Notes: generated by a model from the sequence alone, not told the origin. Counted from the stretch's first letter, positions 2,280 to 23,655 are shown. The stretch is 32,000 bases of DNA from Haloferax volcanii DS2 (GCF_000025685.1 NC_013964.1:330001-362000); one strand, 5' to 3'. Numbers and translations: made by a program.

Positions 2280-3530
2280 ATGCCAGTCAAACGCGTCTCG
2301 GGGGTCGGATGGACGCTCGTCGCGGCGTTACTCGTCGTCGCGGTCGCCGTCTCGCCGGTCGTCGTCGCCGCGGATGGCGTCGAAGTGCGTGCGGTCGACC
2401 ACGGCGGCCCGGGCGTCGTCCCGACCGAGAACGGCCGGCCGTACGTCGCCTCGTGGCAACCCTCGACGGTTTCGGTGACCGTCGCGGGAGACGGCAACGG
2501 CACCGAGGTCTGCTTGCAGACCGACCGCGACGACGGCTCGACGATGCTGTTGGGATGCGAACCGCTCGGAAGCGCGGGAGCGAACCCGACCGACGAACGG
2601 CGCGTCGGCTTCGAGTTCGCAACGTGGCCGGCGAACGCGACCGGCGACCGCACCGTGACAGCGGTCGTCAGACCCGGCGACGGCGGCGAGCCGGTCGCGC
2701 AGGCGAGTCGCGGTGTCACGGTACTCGCGCCGGCCGGCGACGCCGACGGCGACAACCTCGGCAACCGGGACGAACTCGACCGCGGCACGGACGTGCTCGT
2801 CACCGACACCGACACCGACACCGACGGCGTACCCGACGGCGAGGAGGTCAACCGCTACGAGACCGACCCGACGAGCACGGACACCGACGGCGACGACCTC
2901 AGCGACGGCGTCGAAATCAACGAGCAGGGGAGCAACTCGACCGAGACCGACACCGACGGCGACGGCCGAGGCGACGGTGCTGAGGTCGAAGCGGGGACTG
3001 ACCCGAACGCCGCGCCGGGGGCGGTCGTCGGGTCGCTGGAACTCGGCGGCGAGGGCTGGCTGCTCGTCCTCGCGGTCGCGGCCATCGCGGTCGCCCTGCT
3101 CGTCGTCGGCGTGCGAGTCCGCGACAGCGACGCGCGAGCGAGGCTGTCCGACGTTCGCGCCCGCGCGGCCGACCATGTCGACGGCCGAGGCGACGGAGCG
3201 TCGGCGGACGCGGTCCAGACTGGCGGAGGCGACAGTGCGGCGCGTGCGCAGTCGGCCGCCAACAGTTCCCCCGCCGACGGCTCCCCCGCCGCCGAGGAAC
3301 TCCTCGACGACGAGACGCGCGTCCTCAGGCTCCTCGACGACAACGGCGGCCAACTCCGGCAGTCGAAAGTCGTCGAGGGAACGGAGTGGTCGAAATCGAA
3401 GGTGAGTCGCGTCCTCTCGCGGATGGCCGACGAGGGAACCGTCGCGAAGATAAATCTCGGCCGAGAGAACCTCATCGCCCGCCCGGAGAGCGTTCCCGAA
3501 CACGCCCGGTCGCCGTTCGACGAGTCCTGA
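2280..3530 (+). CDS. Membrane-anchored winged-helix (MarR/HTH_45-like) protein with an extracellular domain carrying Asp-rich Ca-binding-type repeats
   Basis: The 416-aa product has these parts in order:
- An N-terminal signal/TM (GWTLVAALLVVAVAVSPVVVAA).
- A beta-rich ectodomain.
- Repeated DxDxDGxxDxxE-like units (DADGDNLGNRDE, DTDTDTDGVPDGEE, DTDGDDLSDGVE, DTDGDGRGDGAE).
- A second TM (GWLLVLAVAAIAVALLVVGV).
- A C-terminal cytoplasmic wHTH (ETRVLRLLDDNGGQLRQSKVVEGTEWSKSKVSRVLSRMADEGTVAKINLGRENL). Confidence 0.8.
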   Translation: MPVKRVSGVGWTLVAALLVVAVAVSPVVVAADGVEVRAVDHGGPGVVPTENGRPYVASWQPSTVSVTVAGDGNGTEVCLQTDRDDGSTMLLGCEPLGSAGANPTDERRVGFEFATWPANATGDRTVTAVVRPGDGGEPVAQASRGVTVLAPAGDADGDNLGNRDELDRGTDVLVTDTDTDTDGVPDGEEVNRYETDPTSTDTDGDDLSDGVEINEQGSNSTETDTDGDGRGDGAEVEAGTDPNAAPGAVVGSLELGGEGWLLVLAVAAIAVALLVVGVRVRDSDARARLSDVRARAADHVDGRGDGASADAVQTGGGDSAARAQSAANSSPADGSPAAEELLDDETRVLRLLDDNGGQLRQSKVVEGTEWSKSKVSRVLSRMADEGTVAKINLGRENLIARPESVPEHARSPFDES

Positions 3531-3592
3531 GCGGGCGACGCGGCGGCCGGGACGACCCGCCCCGAGAGTTGGAATCCCGAACCGCGGACGGA

Positions 3593-3609
3593 GTTGGAAC
3601 ATACCAACC
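3593..3609 (+). promoter_or_regulatory. Palindromic upstream motif copy 1 (GTTGGAACATACCAACC), 34 nt before the ATG of the HTH_10 gene
   Basis: Read directly from the sequence. It is followed by AAGAATATAGG, a TATA-like element. An extra half-site GTTGGAAT lies at 3568-3575. Confidence 0.5.
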
Positions 3610-3643
3610 AAGAATATAGGCCTCGGGGAACTAGGGAAGACTC

Positions 3644-4417
3644 ATGCGAGAATTCGTCTTCACCGTCGAGTACGAGCGGGGTGCCGACGAGGTGATGGAC
3701 CTGTTCATCGAGAACCCGGATTTACACTCCAAGACCATGGCGATACACGCCACGAGCGAGTCGATGTGGCGACTCGACCGCCTCACCGGGCCGACGGAGG
3801 CGCTCGAAGCGTTCGACGAGGTCATCGAGCAGGCCACCCGGTGCAACGGCGTCCTCGGGATGTGCGGCGCGCCGGTCGTCGAGTGGGAGTACGAGGTGCT
3901 GTCGGAGACGCCAAACGGGCGCATCGTCTACTCCTGCCGCGAGGAGGGCGACGGGATTCAGTCGATTCCCCACGTCGCCGCGAAGCACATCGGCGACGGC
4001 CTCCTGATGCAGGCCGAACGCCGGGGGGCACAGAACCAGTGGCGACTGCTCATCTCCGACGACGACACGGTGAGCGAGATTTACGAGGAGGTCAAAGACA
4101 GCCTCAGCGACGGCCTCTCGCTGAGCGTCCAGCGCATCAGCGAACCCGAGTGCTGGCTCGAAGAGAGCGTCTCCGCCGACGGCCTCCCGCCGGAACAGCA
4201 GGCCGCGCTCGAAGCCGCCGTCGAGTTCGGCTACTACGAGACGCCGCGCCAGCACACCGTCCAAGAAATCTCGGAGGAACTCGACATCCCGAACTCGACG
4301 CTCCAGTATCGCCTGACCCGCGCCGAGGCGTGGCTGGCCCGGCAGTTCGTCACCGGCACGCTCGGCACCGAAGTCGAAGACCGCGTCGACCCCGAACAGC
4401 TCGAAGCGAGCGCCTGA
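3644..4417 (+). CDS. HTH_10 (bacterio-opsin-activator-like) family transcriptional regulator
   Basis: 257 aa. The C-terminal segment LPPEQQAALEAAVEFGYYETPRQHTVQEISEELDIPNSTLQYRLTRAEAWLARQFV is the classic haloarchaeal HTH_10 domain. Confidence 0.85.
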   Translation: MREFVFTVEYERGADEVMDLFIENPDLHSKTMAIHATSESMWRLDRLTGPTEALEAFDEVIEQATRCNGVLGMCGAPVVEWEYEVLSETPNGRIVYSCREEGDGIQSIPHVAAKHIGDGLLMQAERRGAQNQWRLLISDDDTVSEIYEEVKDSLSDGLSLSVQRISEPECWLEESVSADGLPPEQQAALEAAVEFGYYETPRQHTVQEISEELDIPNSTLQYRLTRAEAWLARQFVTGTLGTEVEDRVDPEQLEASA

Positions 4418-4464
4418 CCGGCGACTCCCGGGCCGGACGCTCGACGAGAGACGGCCGCAGAACG

Positions 4465-4481
4465 GTTGGAACATTCCAACC
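4465..4481 (+). promoter_or_regulatory. Palindromic upstream motif copy 2 (GTTGGAACATTCCAACC), 35 nt before the GTG start of SUI1
   Basis: Read directly. It differs from copy 1 at one position, and the spacing to the start codon is almost the same. Confidence 0.5.
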
Positions 4482-4516
4482 ACACCCTGATACGCCGCGG
4501 ACGCGTACGTAGATGC

Positions 4517-4819
4517 GTGGGAAAAGACACTTTCAGCGACATCACCGGCCTGCCGGACGACCTCGGAATCGGCGACGACCTCGCGCGGGCGGACCAGCGC
4601 GCGTCGATTCGCGTCGACACCCGACGGTACGGCAAGCCCGTGACGGTGGTCGACGGTCTCGACCTCCCGGCCGACGAACTGGACGCCCTCGCGTCGACGT
4701 TGAAGCGACGGCTCGCGGTCGGCGGGACCGTGACCGACGGGCGCATCGAACTGCAGGGCGAACACGGCGAGCGCCTCGAAGCCGCGCTCCGCGACGAGGG
4801 ATTCGGCGTCGAGCGCTGA
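4517..4819 (+). CDS. Translation initiation factor aIF1 / SUI1 family protein (100 aa, GTG start proposed)
   Basis: The sequence FSDITGLPDDLGIGDDLARADQRASIRVDTRRYGKPVTVVDGLD...LKRRLAVGGTV...IELQGEH fits the SUI1 fold family. The track ATG at 4466 would add a basic non-homologous extension and would lie inside the upstream palindrome. GTG at 4517 gives the normal length. Confidence 0.85.
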   Translation: MGKDTFSDITGLPDDLGIGDDLARADQRASIRVDTRRYGKPVTVVDGLDLPADELDALASTLKRRLAVGGTVTDGRIELQGEHGERLEAALRDEGFGVER

Positions 4820-4932
4820 GCGTGTTATCGTGATTCGATAGCTCTCGCGGCCGAAAAGGGCGGATAACTGACGCGGCAACCGACGTGCGAGCGGTCGATG
4901 TCTCCCGGTCGCGTATTCCGGGAACGAACACA

Positions 4933-4949
4933 GTTGGTATATTCCAAAC
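4933..4949 (+). promoter_or_regulatory. Palindromic upstream motif copy 3 (GTTGGTATATTCCAAAC), 40 nt before the ATG of the TFB paralog
   Basis: Read directly. The 17-mer is identical to copy 4, and 27 of 29 nt are shared once the downstream GAGAyCmCATTA is included. Confidence 0.5.
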
Positions 4950-4989
4950 GAGATCCCATTACCTTGGGTCCGGAATACAGAGGTACTCA

Positions 4990-6024
4990 ATGGACACGAA
5001 ACACGTCGACTGGCGTTCGATGCGAGACGAGTCGGCACCGGCGGCGGGACCCGAAGCCCGACAGTCCGGCGACGAGCGCGACGAGGGCGAGGCCGAGACC
5101 GAATCGGCCGAGGCGGCGGTCGCGGAGCGGACCGACCTCGTCTACGACGAGCAGCACGGCGAGTGGGTCGACCCCGAGACGGGCGAAATCCTCCGCGAGG
5201 ACGAAATCGACCGCGGCCCCGAGTGGCGCGCGTTCGACGCCGCGGAGCGCGACCAGAAATCCCGCGTCGGGTCGCCGACGACGACGATGATGCACGACAA
5301 GGGGCTGTCGACTAACATCGGCTGGCAGAACAAAGACGCCTACGGCAACTCCCTGTCGACGGGACAGCGCCAGAAGATGCAGCGCCTCCGGACGTGGAAC
5401 GAGCGGTTCCGCACCCGCGACTCCAAAGAGCGGAACCTCAAGCAGGCGCTCGGTGAGGTCGAGCGGATGGGCTCGGCGCTCGGGCTTCCGGACACCGTCC
5501 GCGAGACCGCCTCGGTCATCTACCGCCGCGCGCTCGACGACGACCTGCTGCCCGGCCGCTCCATAGAGGGCGTCGCCACCGCCGCAATCTACGCCGCCGC
5601 TCGGCAGGCCGGCGTCCCGCGCTCCCTCGACGAGGTGCGGCGCGTCTCCCGCGTCGACAAGATGGAACTCACCCGGACGTACCGCTACGTCTCCCGCGAA
5701 CTGGGGCTGGACATGAAGCCGGCCGACCCGGCGCAGTACCTCCCGCGGTTCGTCTCCGAACTCGACGTGAGCGACGACGTGGAGCGCCGCGCTCGGTCGC
5801 TTCTCGACAACGCGAAGCGGCAGGGCATCCACAGCGGCAAGAGCCCGGTCGGACTCGCGGCGGCGGCCATCTACGCCGGCGCGCTCCTCGCCGACGAGGA
5901 ACTGACGCAGTCCGAGGTGAGCGACGTGACCGACATCAGCGAAGTGACCATCAGAAACCGCTACCGCGAACTCCTCGAAGCGACCCAGAAATCGGGCGAA
6001 AGGGCCGTCGGGTCGACCGCCTAA
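4990..6024 (+). CDS. tfb: Transcription initiation factor IIB (TFB) paralog with an acidic N-terminal extension and no zinc-ribbon cysteines
   Basis: The B-finger/linker (EDEIDRGPEWRAFD, GLSTNIG) and two cyclin-like repeats (ETASVIYRRALDDDLLPGRSIEGVATAAIYAAARQAGVPRSLDEV; AKRQGIHSGKSPVGLAAAAIYAGALLADEELTQSEVSDVTDISEVTIRNRYREL) are unmistakably TFB. The start is set at ATG 4990 because the upstream part of the ORF contains the promoter palindrome. Confidence 0.9.
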   Translation: MDTKHVDWRSMRDESAPAAGPEARQSGDERDEGEAETESAEAAVAERTDLVYDEQHGEWVDPETGEILREDEIDRGPEWRAFDAAERDQKSRVGSPTTTMMHDKGLSTNIGWQNKDAYGNSLSTGQRQKMQRLRTWNERFRTRDSKERNLKQALGEVERMGSALGLPDTVRETASVIYRRALDDDLLPGRSIEGVATAAIYAAARQAGVPRSLDEVRRVSRVDKMELTRTYRYVSRELGLDMKPADPAQYLPRFVSELDVSDDVERRARSLLDNAKRQGIHSGKSPVGLAAAAIYAGALLADEELTQSEVSDVTDISEVTIRNRYRELLEATQKSGERAVGSTA

Positions 6025-6165
6025 GCGGACGTTTCGAGCGCGAGAAGACGGTTCTTTCTTCGATTCGCGTCGTTTTCAGACGCCTCGTTCGGACTGTTCG
6101 GCCCGTTCGACCCATTCAGACTGTGCGGGTTCGACCGCGGGCGACGCGACGCCGTTCTCACGCCG

Positions 6166-6606
6166 TCAGCGGTTGCACGAACACGACGACGACGCGCGAG
6201 TCGAACTGCCGCGACCCGGCAGCGCGTCGCGGACGCGGTCAGCGAGTGCGCCCGCGGTTTCGCGGACTCTCCCCTCGGCGCTCGATTCGGCGCGTCGTTC
6301 CCGGTAGTCGAAGTAGAGCGCCGTCGGCAGGAGAAGCGAGGCGTACACGCCGCTGATAGCGACGGCAATCTGCATCGGATGGTCTGCGGGGATGACCGCC
6401 CAGCCGACCGCGATAATCGCCCACAGCGCGATTCCCTGCCGGATGGTCGGACACCATCGATTCGTGCGCGCCGACCGCGCCTGCACGTCGGCGGCGTCCA
6501 TGTCGGCGTCATCGCCCGATTCGGACGCCGGGCGGTCCGTTCGATGGGACTCGGCTCGCGCATCGTCGGATAGCGTAGAGGCGTGACGGAACGTTCGTTC
6601 GGACAT
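6166..6606 (-). CDS. Hypothetical membrane protein (two predicted TM helices)
   Basis: 146-aa ORF with reasonable GC3 bias. Hydrophobic stretches are GIALWAIIAVGWAVIP and MQIAVAISGVYASLLLPTALYF. It is preceded by palindrome copy 4. The C-terminal tail (SSTRASSSCSCNR) is atypical, so the 3' end is uncertain. Confidence 0.5.
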   Translation of the reverse strand: MSERTFRHASTLSDDARAESHRTDRPASESGDDADMDAADVQARSARTNRWCPTIRQGIALWAIIAVGWAVIPADHPMQIAVAISGVYASLLLPTALYFDYRERRAESSAEGRVRETAGALADRVRDALPGRGSSTRASSSCSCNR

Positions 6607-6649
6607 AGAATGGTATCGGCGGCTACGGTTCCGAGCCTAATGTGGTCTC

Positions 6650-6666
6650 GTTTGGAATATACCAAC
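6650..6666 (-). promoter_or_regulatory. Palindromic upstream motif copy 4 (minus-strand reading GTTGGTATATTCCAAAC), 43 nt before the ATG at 6606
   Basis: The plus strand reads GTTTGGAATATACCAAC. Its reverse complement is identical to copy 3 and is followed by GAGACCACATTAGG, compared with GAGATCCCATTACC in copy 3. Confidence 0.5.
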
Positions 6667-6699
6667 CACGAGGGCAGAGCCGGCGTTCGGACCCGCGGG

Positions 6700-7218
6700 T
6701 CAGACGCTCGCGCCGTCCACCGGTTCCGCGAACGCGACGGTCTGTTTCACGTCGGTGACTTCGACCTCGACGCGGTCGCCGGGTTCCGTGCCGGGGACGA
6801 TGATGACGAAGCCGCGTTCGACCTTCGCGATGCCGTCGCCTTGGTCACCGAGCGTGTCGATGATGACGGACCGAACGTCGCCCTCCGCGACGGGCGGTTG
6901 TCGCGGCTGAGAGTGCGCTTCGCGGGGTCCAGACGCGGTGTCGGCGGCGGATTCCCGAGCGGGGTCCGAATCGATGTCGCGGTCGTCAGCGGTCGTCGTC
7001 GCCGTCGTCTCCGTCGTCGTCGCCGCCGCCGATTCGACAGCGGCCTCGGTCGCCGACGCGGCGTGCGGACTCGAAAGCAGCGCGACGCGGTACAGTTCCT
7101 CCGTCGAAATCGACCCGTTTTCGACGAGTTCGGTCGGAATCGACACCACGTAACGGTCGCCGTCTCGCTCGACCGACGTCTCGAAAAGGAGCCGAAGAGA
7201 ATCTGAGATATCAGTCAC
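6700..7218 (-). CDS. TRAM domain-containing protein
   Basis: 172 aa. The C-terminal EGDVRSVIIDTLGDQGDGIAKVERGFVIIVPGTEPGDRVEVEVTDVKQTVAFAE matches the TRAM beta-barrel pattern. The middle of the protein is a low-complexity Ala/Thr/Glu linker. Confidence 0.8.
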   Translation of the reverse strand: MTDISDSLRLLFETSVERDGDRYVVSIPTELVENGSISTEELYRVALLSSPHAASATEAAVESAAATTTETTATTTADDRDIDSDPARESAADTASGPREAHSQPRQPPVAEGDVRSVIIDTLGDQGDGIAKVERGFVIIVPGTEPGDRVEVEVTDVKQTVAFAEPVDGASV

Positions 7219-23365: not shown

Positions 23366-23655
23366 GGTCCCCCGTCACGACGACCGCTGCGCCGTCGATT
23401 CCGCCGCCGGGTGGCACCGTGTCGCGGCGAGGCAGGAACGTCCGCGACCGAACCGCCGCCCGTCCCCGTCGTCCGGAGCCGGCGGTCGGCGGCTGTCGGC
23501 TTCGGTCTGAAAGGTATCATTGCGTACTTACCCCGAGAGTAACACCACTTGTTGATAAACATTTCGTGAGATGGCGATTTGGTGGCCAGAATACTCGATG
23601 TTTTTCAAATTTAGTGAATACATACACAGTTCCAACCGGAGGGCCGGATTAGAAT

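What the first reader, a model, noticed from the sequence alone, without database searches (positions are those of the whole stretch)
3564..6670. A 17-bp palindrome (GTTGGWAYATWCCAAMC) occurs four times, each 34-43 nt upstream of a start codon, linking an HTH_10 regulator, aIF1/SUI1, a TFB paralog and a membrane protein
Seen directly in the sequence:
- Copy 1: GTTGGAACATACCAACC at 3593-3609, before the ATG at 3644.
- Copy 2: GTTGGAACATTCCAACC at 4465-4481, before the GTG at 4517.
- Copy 3: GTTGGTATATTCCAAAC at 4933-4949, before the ATG at 4990.
- Copy 4: the identical 17-mer on the minus strand at 6650-6666, before the ATG at 6606.

All copies are oriented with their gene at nearly constant spacing. 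Copies 3 and 4 are identical over 21 nt and share 27 of 29 nt (GTTGGTATATTCCAAACGAGAyCmCATTA). Copies 1 and 2 form a second subtype. An extra half-site GTTGGAAT lies at 3568-3575.

I found no full copy elsewhere in the 32 kb by eye. Only a TTCCAACC half-site occurs, near 23630.

Four copies in 3.1 kb, all promoter-proximal, suggest either a shared operator or a specialised promoter architecture. The central TATATT/ACATWC could itself be the TATA element, with the arms acting as BRE-like contacts. The set of genes involved is unusual: a transcription initiation factor paralog, a translation initiation factor and a regulator. This would fit a small alternative-initiation regulon, possibly autoregulated by the adjacent HTH_10 protein or read by the TFB paralog.
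Basis: partly seen in the sequence, partly recalled or inferred. Interest (0 to 1): 0.72.

Follow-up and report, generated by a model that had tools for sequence, protein, structure and literature searches.

The report
Shared operator of a haloarchaeal regulon
Four copies of a 16-bp palindrome sit directly upstream of the core promoters of four neighbouring Haloferax genes and are most likely the docking site of the adjacent, so far uncharacterised HTH_10 regulator, which would thereby control its own gene, a spare transcription factor B, a spare translation factor aIF1 and a small membrane protein.

Summary
In detail: four copies in 3.1 kb, about 1.5e-4 expected by my own composition arithmetic. 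The window matches Haloferax volcanii pHV3. The genes are HVO_B0283 (PF24281 + HTH_10 regulator), B0284 (non-essential aIF1 paralog), B0285 (TFB paralog without zinc-ribbon cysteines) and B0286 (small membrane protein).

All four sites recur at the same distances (centre 43-52 nt before the start codon) in all nine other Haloferax genomes aligned. Three recur in Halogranum. In H. mediterranei the aIF1 paralog lies on another replicon and keeps its site.

Each palindrome is followed by a separate conserved TATA-like element, preceded in three of four promoters by BRE-like CGAG or CCAAG. So it sits just upstream of the core promoter and is not the TATA box.

Across 78 loci encoding homologs of the regulator, site density is about 125-fold higher within 300 bp of the regulator gene than beyond 3 kb. 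A closely related 540-kb replicon has five exact sites, all beside its two PF24281 regulators.

Best reading: a dimeric regulator's operator or upstream activating site for a small, probably autoregulated regulon. Binding, start sites, signal and sign are untested. It is a new member of a known kind, of moderate interest.

The parts
3568..3575 (+). Isolated half-site GTTGGAAT, 25 nt upstream of copy 1; doubtful part
   Evidence: Present in the sequence. In the orthologous upstream regions a TTGG recurs at this position in only two of the close Haloferax relatives.
3593..3609 (+). Palindrome copy 1, in the promoter of the regulator gene (candidate autoregulatory site). Its centre lies 43 nt before the ATG.
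   Evidence: A TTGG-type dyad lies at -43 to -45 upstream of 24 of 41 'T-class' regulator homologs, from Haloferax, Halogranum, Halorientalis, Halohasta, Halobacterium jilantaiense and Halostagnicola. The same type also precedes the Natrinema homologs (residue N) and Halarchaeum.
3613..3619 (+). TATA-like box AATATAG, centred about 28 nt before the ATG at 3644. Fits a leaderless transcript (inferred).
   Evidence: Orthologs carry cTATAg, TTATAG or CTATAC at the same offset. 72% of H. volcanii coding transcripts are leaderless (PMC4983044).
3644..4417 (+). Regulator gene, 257 aa (HVO_B0283 in DS2): PF24281 HVO_2928_N domain plus C-terminal HTH_10
   Evidence: Pfam E 6.5e-67 and 4.5e-13. The AlphaFold2 model (mean pLDDT 82) shows two beta-alpha-beta-beta-alpha-beta units plus a three-helix HTH. 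Locus tag.
4465..4481 (+). Palindrome copy 2, in the promoter of the aIF1/SUI1 paralog. Its centre lies 44 nt before the GTG.
   Evidence: Conserved at d=44 in Haloferax species, in Halogranum, and before the unlinked yciH/SUI1 gene on H. mediterranei pHM500.
4487..4493 (+). Weak TATA-like element CTGATAC, centred 27 nt before the GTG at 4517
   Evidence: cTGATAc, cTCATac or similar recur at the same offset in orthologs.
4517..4819 (+). aIF1/SUI1 paralog, 100 aa (HVO_B0284)
   Evidence: PF01253 and NCBIfam PRK00939. Its deletion has little or no phenotype, whereas HVO_1946 is the essential aIF1 (PMC3828320). Expression rises 5.8-fold in a tfeB deletion strain.
4933..4949 (+). Palindrome copy 3, in the promoter of the TFB paralog. 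Its centre lies about 49 nt before the ATG.
   Evidence: Conserved at d=49-50 in Haloferax species, including where the TFB gene lies 5 kb from the SUI1 gene. Also present in Halogranum and H. mediterranei.
4948..4963 (+). BRE-like ACGAG followed by weak TATA-like CCCATTACC, centred about 31 nt before the ATG at 4990
   Evidence: aCGAGnnnCCCATTAcc is conserved in TFB and membrane-protein promoters. aCGAg plus a weak TATA also follows the dyad in target promoters of other clades. The haloarchaeal BRE consensus is CGAAA (PMC4983044).
4990..6024 (+). TFB paralog, 344 aa (HVO_B0285, TfbB/D/F clade), with no cysteine in the zinc-ribbon region
   Evidence: TFIIB repeats score E 1.8e-45, but Zn_Ribbon_TF is below its cut-off. 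There are 0 Cys in the first 110 residues in seven Haloferax/Halogranum orthologs. Clade assignment from PMC5861453. Expression rises 2.8-fold in the tfeB deletion strain.
6166..6606 (-). Small protein, 146 aa (HVO_B0286), with a long hydrophobic stretch consistent with two transmembrane segments and a C-terminal CSCNR motif
   Evidence: No Pfam or NCBIfam family. Orthologs keep the hydrophobic core and a Cys-rich C-terminus. The transmembrane reading is from the sequence; no topology prediction was run.
6636..6649 (-). GAGACCACATTAGG: the CGAG tail of the BRE-like ACGAG (which begins in the last two bases of copy 4) followed by weak TATA-like CATTAGG, centred about 34 nt before the ATG at 6606
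6650..6666 (-). Palindrome copy 4, in the promoter of the membrane-protein gene. Its centre lies 52 nt before the ATG.
   Evidence: Conserved at d=52 in seven Haloferax genomes, and present with 1 mismatch in H. mediterranei.

Best explanation
The palindrome is the DNA-binding site (operator or upstream activating site) of a dimer of the PF24281 + HTH_10 regulator encoded at 3644-4417 (HVO_B0283).

Each half-site, GTTGGWAY, would be read by one C-terminal helix-turn-helix. The N-terminal tandem ferredoxin-like domain would mediate dimerisation and/or sense an unknown signal.

The dyad ends one base before a BRE-like CGAG (in two of the four promoters) and 4-9 bases before a TATA-like element. 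If transcription starts at or a few bases before the start codon, the dyad covers roughly -51 to -36, directly upstream of and touching the TFB/TBP footprint.

The three target promoters (aIF1 paralog, TFB paralog, membrane protein) have poor TATA elements. At these, the bound regulator most likely helps recruit TBP/TFB, that is, it activates. The regulator's own promoter has a good TATA box, and there the site would give autoregulation.

The regulon is small and mostly local, but it acts in trans.

Shown here: the sequence, its conservation, its position relative to genes, and its association with the regulator family.

Inferred: protein binding, transcription start sites, dimerisation, the sign of regulation and the signal.
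For: 1. Non-random and non-mobile.
- Four copies against 0 in 100 shuffles.
- Similarity between copies stops after 20-29 nt, with no terminal repeats or target duplications.
- No Rfam match and no consistent RNA hairpin.

2. Phylogenetic footprint.
- In the nine other Haloferax genomes aligned, sites precede the regulator, SUI1, TFB and membrane-protein genes. Centre-to-start distances, where the crude ORF finder located the start, are 43-45, 44, 49-50 and 52 nt. H. mucosum has no SUI1 site.
- Three of the four sites recur in Halogranum, in a rearranged locus.
- In H. mediterranei the SUI1 gene is on pHM500, the regulator is on pHM300, and the site is retained at d=44.

3. The site tracks the regulator family, not the targets.
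- In other genera the dyad precedes the regulator homolog and, or instead, the adjacent gene. That gene is a Tat-signal amidohydrolase, an MBL hydrolase, or a normal zinc-ribbon TFB.
- Around 78 homolog loci the site density is 139 per 100 kb within 300 bp of the regulator gene, 5.8 at 300-3000 bp, 1.1 beyond that, and 0 inside the gene.
- There are 66 exact sites in 1.52 Mb against 0.15 expected. Of these, 61% have a start codon 38-57 nt away, against 10% for random positions.

4. Whole-replicon scan.
- The 540-kb H. alexandrinus plasmid (its match to window 3400-6900 is 99.2% identical) has 5 exact sites.
- They are the four above, plus one 44 nt before a heavy-metal P-type ATPase gene immediately downstream of the replicon's only other PF24281 regulator among those scanned.
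- Eight other HTH_10 proteins scanned on that replicon (DmsR_N type, BAT type, or no recognised N-terminal domain) are not PF24281. No exact site lies near any of them or near a second TFB gene.

5. Co-variation.
- Regulators with STLQYR[LIV]-T-RAE go with GTTGGnAyAtnCCAAC.
- Of the 17 with -Q- (Haloarcula type), 15 go with TT[TC]GGC-N4-GCC[GA]AA at -49 to -51.
- The Halorubrum -S- type goes with GTCGGyATATGCCAAC.

6. Position.
- A separate conserved TATA-like element follows every dyad. BRE-like CGAG follows it directly in the TFB and membrane-protein promoters and in most target promoters of other clades.
- This fits the haloarchaeal CGAAA/TTWT promoter model and the 72% share of leaderless transcripts.

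7. Expression.
- In published RNA-seq, B0284 (27 to 159) and B0285 (9.7 to 27) rise together in a tfeB deletion strain.

8. Family precedent.
- The characterised HTH_10 regulators Bat, NarO and DmsR are described as activators (PMC11218638).
Against: - No binding, transcription-start or mutant data exist for this regulator or motif. The held copy of the H. volcanii TSS table is cut before pHV3.
- In the tfeB deletion data the regulator's own mRNA does not change (29.8 to 28.7). B0286 falls non-significantly (27.9 to 13.0). So the four genes do not behave as one unit, and the induction may have nothing to do with this regulator.
- The recognition helix is almost invariant across paralogs. A 37%-identical paralog sits next to a perfect TTGGAATATTCCAA site. 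So which paralog binds which site is unresolved.
- Co-variation of regulator clade and site could partly reflect shared ancestry.
- The 'N-class' paralogs mostly lack a TTGG dyad in their own promoters.
- The main chromosome, pHV1 and pHV4 could not be scanned, so the size of the regulon is a lower bound.
- Activation rather than repression rests only on position and on the weakness of the TATA elements.
Confidence: 0.7

Rival explanations
1. Same protein and same site, but the regulator is a repressor. By binding a dyad that abuts or overlaps the BRE, it blocks TFB/TBP recruitment at all four promoters until a signal releases it.
For: - The promoter-proximal arm ends within 0-3 bp of the expected BRE position.
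- All four genes are weakly expressed in the wild type (values about 10-30). Two are de-repressed or induced in the tfeB deletion strain while regulator mRNA stays constant. This pattern is compatible with release of a repressor.
- Negative autoregulation is common among regulators (general knowledge).
Against: - In characterised archaeal systems, sites upstream of BRE/TATA usually activate, while repressor sites overlap the TATA box or the TSS (general knowledge, from memory).
- The target promoters have poor TATA elements (CCCATTA, CTGATAC). Such promoters would be weak even without a repressor.
- The characterised HTH_10 relatives are described as activators.
Confidence: 0.22
2. The dyad is bound mainly by a different PF24281 paralog, such as HVO_2928 or a plasmid-borne copy, or by several paralogs interchangeably. 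HVO_B0283 would be only one of several readers, or not the reader at all.
For: - The recognition helix STLQYRLxRAE is nearly invariant in the family.
- A 37%-identical paralog lies next to a perfect TTGGAATATTCCAA site.
- Haloferax genomes carry further paralogs at 47-53% identity.
Against: - A TTGG-type dyad is conserved upstream of B0283 orthologs across several genera.
- The SUI1, TFB and membrane-protein sites co-occur with a B0283 ortholog in every genome examined.
Confidence: 0.15
3. The palindrome is itself a specialised core promoter: a central TATA box with symmetric BRE-like arms. It would be read by TBP together with the TFB paralog HVO_B0285.
For: - The centre of copies 3 and 4 (TATATT) resembles a TATA box.
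- TFB paralogs are reported to prefer different BRE variants (PMC5861453).
Against: - A separate conserved TATA-like element follows each dyad at the distance expected for leaderless or near-leaderless transcripts.
- Clade variants have G+C-rich centres (CACACG, CATGCG) yet keep a downstream TATAAG.
- The dyad occurs in loci with no TFB gene beside the regulator and its target.
- A second TFB gene on the same replicon has no dyad.
- A 16-bp dyad suggests a dimeric reader, whereas a BRE is short and asymmetric (general knowledge).
Confidence: 0.05
4. The copies are remnants of a small mobile repeat (MITE-like), or they act at the RNA level as hairpins or terminators.
For: - Copies 3 and 4 form 29-nt inverted repeats flanking the convergent TFB and membrane-protein gene pair.
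- Copy 2 lies 48 nt after the regulator's stop codon and folds at -11 kcal/mol, z = -3.4.
Against: - No extended similarity, terminal repeats or target duplications.
- Only 5 exact copies on a 540-kb replicon, all promoter-proximal and all next to PF24281 regulators.
- Positions are conserved in orthologous promoters while the flanks diverge.
- Three of the four RNA hairpins are weak (-2.8 to -9.3 kcal/mol, z from +0.1 to -1.6), and no T-run follows.
- No Rfam hit.
Confidence: 0.02

Closest known systems
Bat, NarO and DmsR: haloarchaeal HTH_10 ('bacterio-opsin activator'-type) regulators
   Same: - A C-terminal HTH_10 DNA-binding domain joined to an N-terminal sensor domain.
- They are described as activators of a few specific promoters (PMC11218638).
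- From memory: Bat acts through an upstream activating sequence just 5' of the bop TATA box, and NarO has conserved N-terminal cysteines.
   Different: - The N-terminal domain here is PF24281 (HVO_2928_N), not PAS/GAF/BAT or DmsR_N.
- The targets are initiation-factor paralogs rather than respiratory or phototrophy genes.
- The binding motif is not one I could find described anywhere.
- The NarO paper was not available to me.
Archaeal activators that bind directly upstream of BRE/TATA: Ptr2, TrmBL1 and SurR in activating mode, and the GvpE upstream activating sequence in haloarchaea (from memory, not tested here)
   Same: - A dyad or repeat site immediately 5' of the BRE.
- A weak core promoter that depends on recruitment of TBP/TFB.
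   Different: - The protein families are unrelated (Lrp, TrmB, ArsR-like, bZIP-like).
- Activation at this locus is inferred from geometry only.
Stress-induced alternative TFBs: H. volcanii tfb2 (heat shock; PMC2396416), Halobacterium tfbB/tfbG, Sulfolobus TFB3 (UV; PMC6101591)
   Same: - A TFB paralog whose own transcription is conditionally controlled.
- HVO_B0285 belongs to the TfbB/D/F clade and is induced in a tfeB deletion strain.
   Different: - HVO_B0285 is not tfb2. The published tfb2 primers encode ..SDTITT../..GTLLA*, whereas this protein runs MDTKHV.. to ..GSTA*.
- For none of those TFBs did the papers I read name a dedicated cis-element plus cognate regulator.
- HVO_B0285 also lacks the four zinc-ribbon cysteines. 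TFB3 is, from memory, truncated rather than Cys-less.
Bacterial class II activator sites (centred near -41.5) and autoregulated 'one-component' regulators with adjacent targets
   Same: - A 16-bp dyad for a dimeric HTH protein, touching the basal-machinery footprint.
- The regulator gene lies next to its targets and carries its own site.
   Different: - The basal machinery here is archaeal TBP/TFB/RNAP.
- The comparison is an analogy of architecture, not homology.

Membership tests
PF24281 (HVO_2928_N) + PF04967 (HTH_10) regulators: the protein at 3644-4417 | Both Pfam domains score above their gathering thresholds, in N-to-C order | tested here: met
   224.7 bits (cut-off 27) and 49.2 bits (cut-off 23.1). 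There are 209 homologs, and all those that carry an organism name are Halobacteria.
Transcription-factor operator or upstream activating site | Dyad symmetry, and occurrence far above chance | tested here: met
   A 7+2+7 dyad. Four copies against 0 in 100 shuffles. 66 sites against 0.15 expected in 1.52 Mb.
Transcription-factor operator or upstream activating site | Conserved in sequence and position in orthologous promoters while the flanks diverge | tested here: met
   nine other Haloferax genomes and Halogranum, plus the unlinked SUI1 gene of H. mediterranei.
Transcription-factor operator or upstream activating site | Genomic association with a candidate cognate regulator | tested here: met
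   Site density is about 125-fold higher within 300 bp of the regulator genes than beyond 3 kb. All 5 exact sites on a 540-kb replicon lie next to its two PF24281 genes.
Transcription-factor operator or upstream activating site | Sequence-specific binding by the protein, and a regulatory effect in vivo | not testable with these tools
   Needs EMSA or footprinting, ChIP-seq, and deletion or reporter assays. Only indirect RNA-seq is available.
Transcription-factor operator or upstream activating site | A defined position relative to the transcription start (upstream of BRE/TATA) | tested here: inconclusive
   A conserved TATA-like element lies downstream of each dyad, preceded by BRE-like CGAG in two of the four window promoters. 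No TSS data could be obtained, because the held table is cut before pHV3.
Core promoter element (TATA box with BRE) | An A+T-rich TATA element (TTWT) about 27 nt upstream of the TSS, with an asymmetric BRE (CGAAA) on its 5' side | tested here: not met
   Clade variants of the dyad have G+C-rich centres. The arms (GTTGG) do not resemble CGAAA. A separate TATA-like element follows each copy. Direct TSS evidence is lacking.
MITE or mobile repeat | Terminal inverted repeats around an internal sequence, target-site duplications, and dispersed copies | tested here: not met
   Similarity is limited to 20-29 nt. There are 5 exact copies per 540 kb, all promoter-proximal.
TFB/TFIIB: the protein at 4990-6024 | Two cyclin-like core repeats | tested here: met
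   PF00382, 2 stretches, E 1.8e-45. NCBIfam PRK00423 scores 381.9 bits, just under its 384 cut-off.
TFB/TFIIB: the protein at 4990-6024 | An N-terminal zinc ribbon with four metal-binding cysteines (CxxC...CxxC) | tested here: not met
   Zn_Ribbon_TF scores 19.7 bits against a cut-off of 29. There are no cysteines in the region (DLVYDEQHGEWVDPETGE). This is conserved in seven orthologs, whereas the Haloarcula and Salinigranum TFBs next to the dyad keep CPxCG...CxxCG.
aIF1/SUI1: the protein at 4517-4819 | A SUI1 domain | tested here: met
   PF01253 at 60 bits (cut-off 25.5). NCBIfam PRK00939 at 100.7 bits (cut-off 98).
aIF1/SUI1: the protein at 4517-4819 | Acts as the cell's translation initiation factor 1 | not testable with these tools
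   The literature reports that HVO_B0284 is dispensable and only 49% identical to the essential HVO_1946. The authors doubt that it has an initiation role (PMC3828320).

The most novel reading that the evidence does not exclude
HVO_B0283 is a signal-sensing switch that turns on a matched pair of alternative initiation factors. One is a zinc-ribbon-cysteine-less TFB for transcription. The other is a second aIF1 for translation. A small Cys-tailed membrane protein comes on with them. Under one specific, still unknown condition, the cell would thus re-programme promoter choice and start-codon or leaderless-mRNA selection together. More broadly, PF24281 regulators would form a family of one-component sensors that share one operator grammar (TYGG-N6-CCRA immediately 5' of the BRE) and have been rewired repeatedly onto different single targets: TFBs, amidohydrolases and a metal ATPase.
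Probability: 0.2. Interest if true: 0.75.

Novelty: new member of a known kind. Interest (0 to 1): 0.55.

Why it matters
Haloarchaea carry many TFB and TBP paralogs. How each paralog is itself switched on has remained an open question, and in the papers I read the reported cases are described mainly as expression changes.

Here a TFB paralog in the genetically tractable model H. volcanii comes with a candidate dedicated regulator, a precise 16-bp site and three co-sited genes. That makes the question directly testable with standard tools: deletion of HVO_B0283, dyad mutations, ChIP-seq.

The finding also gives a first functional handle on two things:
- Pfam family PF24281, for which I found no literature at all.
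- The dispensable aIF1 paralog HVO_B0284, whose role has been unclear since 2013.

The family-wide operator grammar could be used to predict targets of these regulators across the Halobacteria.

Tried and rejected
1. Identity with the heat-shock tfb2 of Thompson et al. Rejected: the tfb2 primers in PMC2396416 encode different N- and C-termini. The NCBI product name 'IIB 2' is only a label.

2. Experimental TSS for the four genes. The held copy of Babski 2016 Table S2 is cut before pHV3. The Laass 2019 supplements do not list these genes.

3. Literature on the regulator or the motif. Nothing was found for HVO_B0283, PF24281 or HVO_2928_N. HVO_2928 appears only as the locus of an antisense RNA. 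The NarO paper (PMC4800875) is not held.

4. RNA element. There are no Rfam hits at E <= 1. The hairpins are inconsistent. There is no terminator-like site at the copies.

5. MITE or repeat. Rejected.

7. A genome-wide motif scan of all genomes. Not attempted. Instead, a complete closely related 540-kb replicon was assembled from 12 fetches and scanned.

8. Unlikely: no gene annotated with this domain lies next to the regulator in Halogranum, H. mediterranei or Halobacterium jilantaiense, where the sites persist.

Full report
OBSERVATION

The IUPAC pattern finds only these four places in the 32-kb window, even with two mismatches, and none in 100 dinucleotide-preserving shuffles. My own arithmetic from the base composition puts the expectation for the 14-nt core at about 1.5e-4 per window.

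The repeat is better described as a 16-bp dyad, GTTGGWA-YA-TWCCAAC, with core TTGGNAYRTNCCAA. The gaps from the 17-mers to the start codons are 34, 35, 40 and 43 nt. Those start codons are the ones annotated in a public record whose match to window 3400-6900 is 99.2% identical. Copies 3 and 4 share 27 of 29 nt. The extra half-site at 3568-3575 exists, but a TTGG recurs at that position in only two of the close Haloferax relatives. The TTCCAACC at 23630 is at chance level.

WHERE WE ARE

- The proteins are identical or nearly identical to Haloferax volcanii-group proteins. The TFB is UniProt D4GPT2_HALVD.
- A supplementary table of PMC5861453 lists HVO_B0283 at NC_013964 (pHV3) 333644, B0284 at 334517, B0285 at 334985-336020 and B0286 at 336169-336500. 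These are the window coordinates plus 330,000, within a few bases.
- The regulator (3644-4417, HVO_B0283) has PF24281 HVO_2928_N plus PF04967 HTH_10.
- HVO_B0284 is a second aIF1/SUI1. Its deletion had little or no phenotype, while HVO_1946 is the essential aIF1 (PMC3828320).
- HVO_B0285 is a TfbB/D/F-clade TFB (PMC5861453).
- HVO_B0286 is a 146-aa protein with no family assignment. It has a long hydrophobic stretch consistent with two transmembrane segments and a C-terminal CSCNR motif.
- This TFB is not the heat-shock tfb2 of the older literature. The published tfb2 primers encode different termini.

CONSERVATION

I fetched 80 genomic loci encoding homologs of the regulator, plus loci from H. 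mediterranei and a Halobacterium.

- In the nine other Haloferax genomes aligned, sites precede the regulator, SUI1, TFB and membrane-protein genes (H. mucosum has no SUI1 site). Where my crude ORF finder located the start, the centre-to-start distances are 43-45, 44, 49-50 and 52 nt. This holds even where 5 kb separate the SUI1 and TFB genes.
- Halogranum amylolyticum has a rearranged locus but keeps sites before the regulator, SUI1 and TFB genes.
- In H. mediterranei the regulator, TFB and membrane-protein genes lie on pHM300, and the SUI1 gene lies on pHM500. The SUI1 gene still carries TTGGTATATCCCAA 44 nt before its start. The element therefore travels with each target gene and works in trans.

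GEOMETRY

Aligning 47 oriented sites shows a second conserved element downstream of each dyad.

- Regulator promoters: cTATAg, centred about 28 nt before the ATG.
- SUI1 promoters: cTGATAc or cTCATac, about -27.
- TFB and membrane-protein promoters: aCGAGnnnCCCATTA(cc/gg), about -31 and -34.
- Target promoters in other clades show the same order: dyad, then usually aCGAg, then a weak TATA-like element.

The published haloarchaeal consensus is BRE CGAAA and TATA TTWT, and 72% of H. volcanii coding transcripts are leaderless (PMC4983044). The simplest reading is that the dyad lies immediately 5' of BRE/TATA, at roughly -51 to -36. The regulator and SUI1 mRNAs would be leaderless, and the other two would have leaders of about 4-8 nt. 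No TSS data could be obtained, because the held table is truncated before pHV3. These positions are therefore inferred.

WHO READS IT

The dyad follows the regulator family, not the targets.

- In Halorubrum, Halarchaeum, Natronococcus, Natronorubrum, Halostagnicola, Natrinema and Halorussus, the dyad precedes the gene adjacent to the regulator, a Tat-signal amidohydrolase of about 495 aa. In most of these genera it also precedes the regulator homolog itself.
- In a Natrinema plasmid the adjacent gene is an MBL hydrolase.
- In Haloarcula it is a normal zinc-ribbon TFB.
- Around 78 homolog loci the site density is 139 per 100 kb within 300 bp of the regulator gene, 5.8 at 300-3000 bp, 1.1 beyond, and 0 inside the gene.
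- There are 66 exact sites in 1.52 Mb, where composition predicts 0.15. Of these, 61% have a start codon 38-57 nt from the centre, against 10% for random positions.

I also assembled the complete 540-kb H. alexandrinus plasmid and scanned it.

- It has five exact sites: the four known ones and one new one.
- The new site lies 44 nt before a heavy-metal P-type ATPase gene. That gene sits directly downstream of the only other PF24281 regulator found on the replicon, a 37%-identical paralog.
- Eight other HTH_10 proteins scanned there have DmsR_N, BAT or no recognised N-terminal domain, not PF24281. No exact site lies near any of them, or near a second TFB gene at 307.6 kb.

The dyad also co-varies with the regulator clade.

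- A T at the one variable position of the recognition helix (STLQYR[LIV]xRAE) goes with GTTGGnAyAtnCCAAC at -43 to -45.
- Of 17 regulators with Q (Haloarcula type), 15 go with TT[TC]GGC-N4-GCC[GA]AA at -49 to -51.
- S (Halorubrum) goes with GTCGGyATATGCCAAC.
- The G+C-rich centres of the Q-type dyads, each followed by a TATAAG box, argue strongly against the idea that the dyad centre is the TATA element.

THE PROTEIN

- An AlphaFold2 model (mean pLDDT 82) shows two consecutive beta-alpha-beta-beta-alpha-beta units followed by a three-helix HTH.
- The Foldseek PDB search gave no convincing relative. The best match was Ta1207 at TM-score 0.37. Other fold libraries were unavailable.
- Tandem ferredoxin-like (ACT/RAM-type) modules commonly bind small ligands and mediate oligomerisation (general knowledge). 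That fits a one-component sensor, but it is a resemblance, not a test.

EXPRESSION

In the RNA-seq table of PMC5861453, comparing a tfeB deletion strain with its parent:

- B0284 rises from 27 to 159 (log2 2.33).
- B0285 rises from 9.7 to 27 (log2 1.23).
- B0283 is unchanged (29.8 to 28.7).
- B0286 falls non-significantly (27.9 to 13.0).

Two of the four dyad-bearing genes are therefore co-induced. The set does not behave uniformly, and the link to this regulator is unproven.

MECHANISM PROPOSED

A dimer of HVO_B0283 binds the dyad through its two HTH_10 domains.

- At the three targets, whose TATA elements are poor, a site touching the BRE from upstream most likely promotes TBP/TFB recruitment. 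That would be activation, as described for the HTH_10 relatives Bat, NarO and DmsR.
- At its own well-formed promoter, the site would provide autoregulation.
- A repressor reading remains a serious rival. The proximal arm reaches the BRE, and all four genes are weakly expressed in the wild type.
- It is also unresolved which of the several paralogs with near-identical recognition helices occupies the sites.

REJECTED READINGS

- A mobile repeat. Similarity stops after 20-29 nt and there are only five promoter-proximal copies per 540 kb.
- An RNA element. There is no Rfam hit, the hairpins are inconsistent and there is no T-run.
- A site read by the TFB paralog. The dyad occurs in loci with no TFB beside the regulator and its target, and another TFB gene lacks it.

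NOVELTY AND VERDICT

Full-text searches found no paper mentioning HVO_B0283, PF24281 or HVO_2928_N, and the motif searches I ran turned up nothing relevant. In kind this is ordinary: a regulator, its dyad operator and a small regulon. It is therefore a new member of a known kind.

Its interest lies in the cargo. A TFB paralog that has lost all four zinc-ribbon cysteines is paired with a dispensable aIF1 paralog, in a model organism where the predictions can be tested quickly. The family-wide operator grammar also adds value.

Confidence that the dyad is the binding site of PF24281-type regulators is about 0.7. Confidence that it activates the targets is about 0.55. Binding, transcription start sites, the signal, and the regulon outside the scanned replicon remain untested.

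Noticed in passing
window 5128-5200 (residues about 47-70 of the TFB at 4990-6024): The TFB paralog HVO_B0285 has no cysteine where the zinc ribbon should be: DLVYDEQHGEWVDPETGE replaces CPxCG...CxxCG. The B-reader motif DRGPEWRAF is kept. The loss is shared by seven Haloferax and Halogranum orthologs, whereas the dyad-associated TFBs of Haloarcula and Salinigranum keep four cysteines.
   Followed up: partly
L098 32147-32160 (H. alexandrinus pBNX82-1, 331546-331559): A fifth perfect site, TTGGAATATTCCAA, lies 44 nt before a heavy-metal (HMA-domain) P-type ATPase gene. That gene sits directly after a second PF24281+HTH_10 regulator, 37% identical to the window's. This hints that some family members are metal-responsive, and that paralogs may cross-talk.
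   Followed up: partly
L046, L048, L051, L056, L058, L060, L061, L074, L075, L086 (about 40-55 nt before the gene that follows the regulator homolog): In seven other genera the regulator homolog is paired with a Tat-signal amidohydrolase of about 495 aa. Its promoter carries the dyad (often TTGGAACATACCGA) followed by aCGA and a weak TATA-like element.
   Followed up: partly
L049, L052, L053, L055 (about -45 to -65 before the regulator paralog): The more distant 'N-class' paralogs on Haloferax chromosomes and a Natrinema plasmid (47-48% identity) lack the TTGG dyad in their own promoters. They show a different inverted repeat instead, for example CCAGAAGAGCGGTTCTGG in L055, read by eye from the upstream sequence. 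Where a TTGG-type site occurs in N-class loci, it lies after the regulator gene, before the neighbouring gene (L029, L030, L053).
   Followed up: no
window 4517: The aIF1 paralog starts with GTG, and its predicted TATA position implies a leaderless GUG mRNA. In H. volcanii that class is associated with weak expression (PMC4983044).
   Followed up: no
window 6166-6606 (minus strand) and orthologs in L014, L016, L091: The small membrane protein keeps a Cys-rich C-terminus (CSCNR, CLCNC or LCWYDC). Its N-terminal acidic region varies greatly in length; H. denitrificans has a long DADIDI repeat expansion. The H. mediterranei record annotates a start about 75 nt too far downstream.
   Followed up: partly
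window 2280-3530: The upstream gene encodes a protein with an apparent signal or anchor sequence, TSP3-type Asp-rich repeats and a C-terminal DUF7343 winged-helix domain. The ORF is 416 aa here, against 529 aa called in closely related strains. DS2 lists it as HVO_B0281 from 331999 with a '+' flag, so it may be disrupted or have a different start.
   Followed up: no
window 3644, 4517, 4990, 6166: Gene coordinates equal those listed for H. volcanii DS2 pHV3 (NC_013964) minus 330,000, within a few bases. The window is therefore probably pHV3 330,001-362,000 or a near-identical strain. The listed start of HVO_B0285 (334985) is 5 nt before the ATG, close to the TSS predicted from the TATA-like element. 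I could not explain this offset.
   Followed up: no
window 6700-7218 (minus strand): The neighbouring gene encodes a TRAM-domain protein with a long Ala/Thr/acidic N-terminal region. It has no dyad in its promoter, and its expression does not change in the tfeB deletion data.
   Followed up: no
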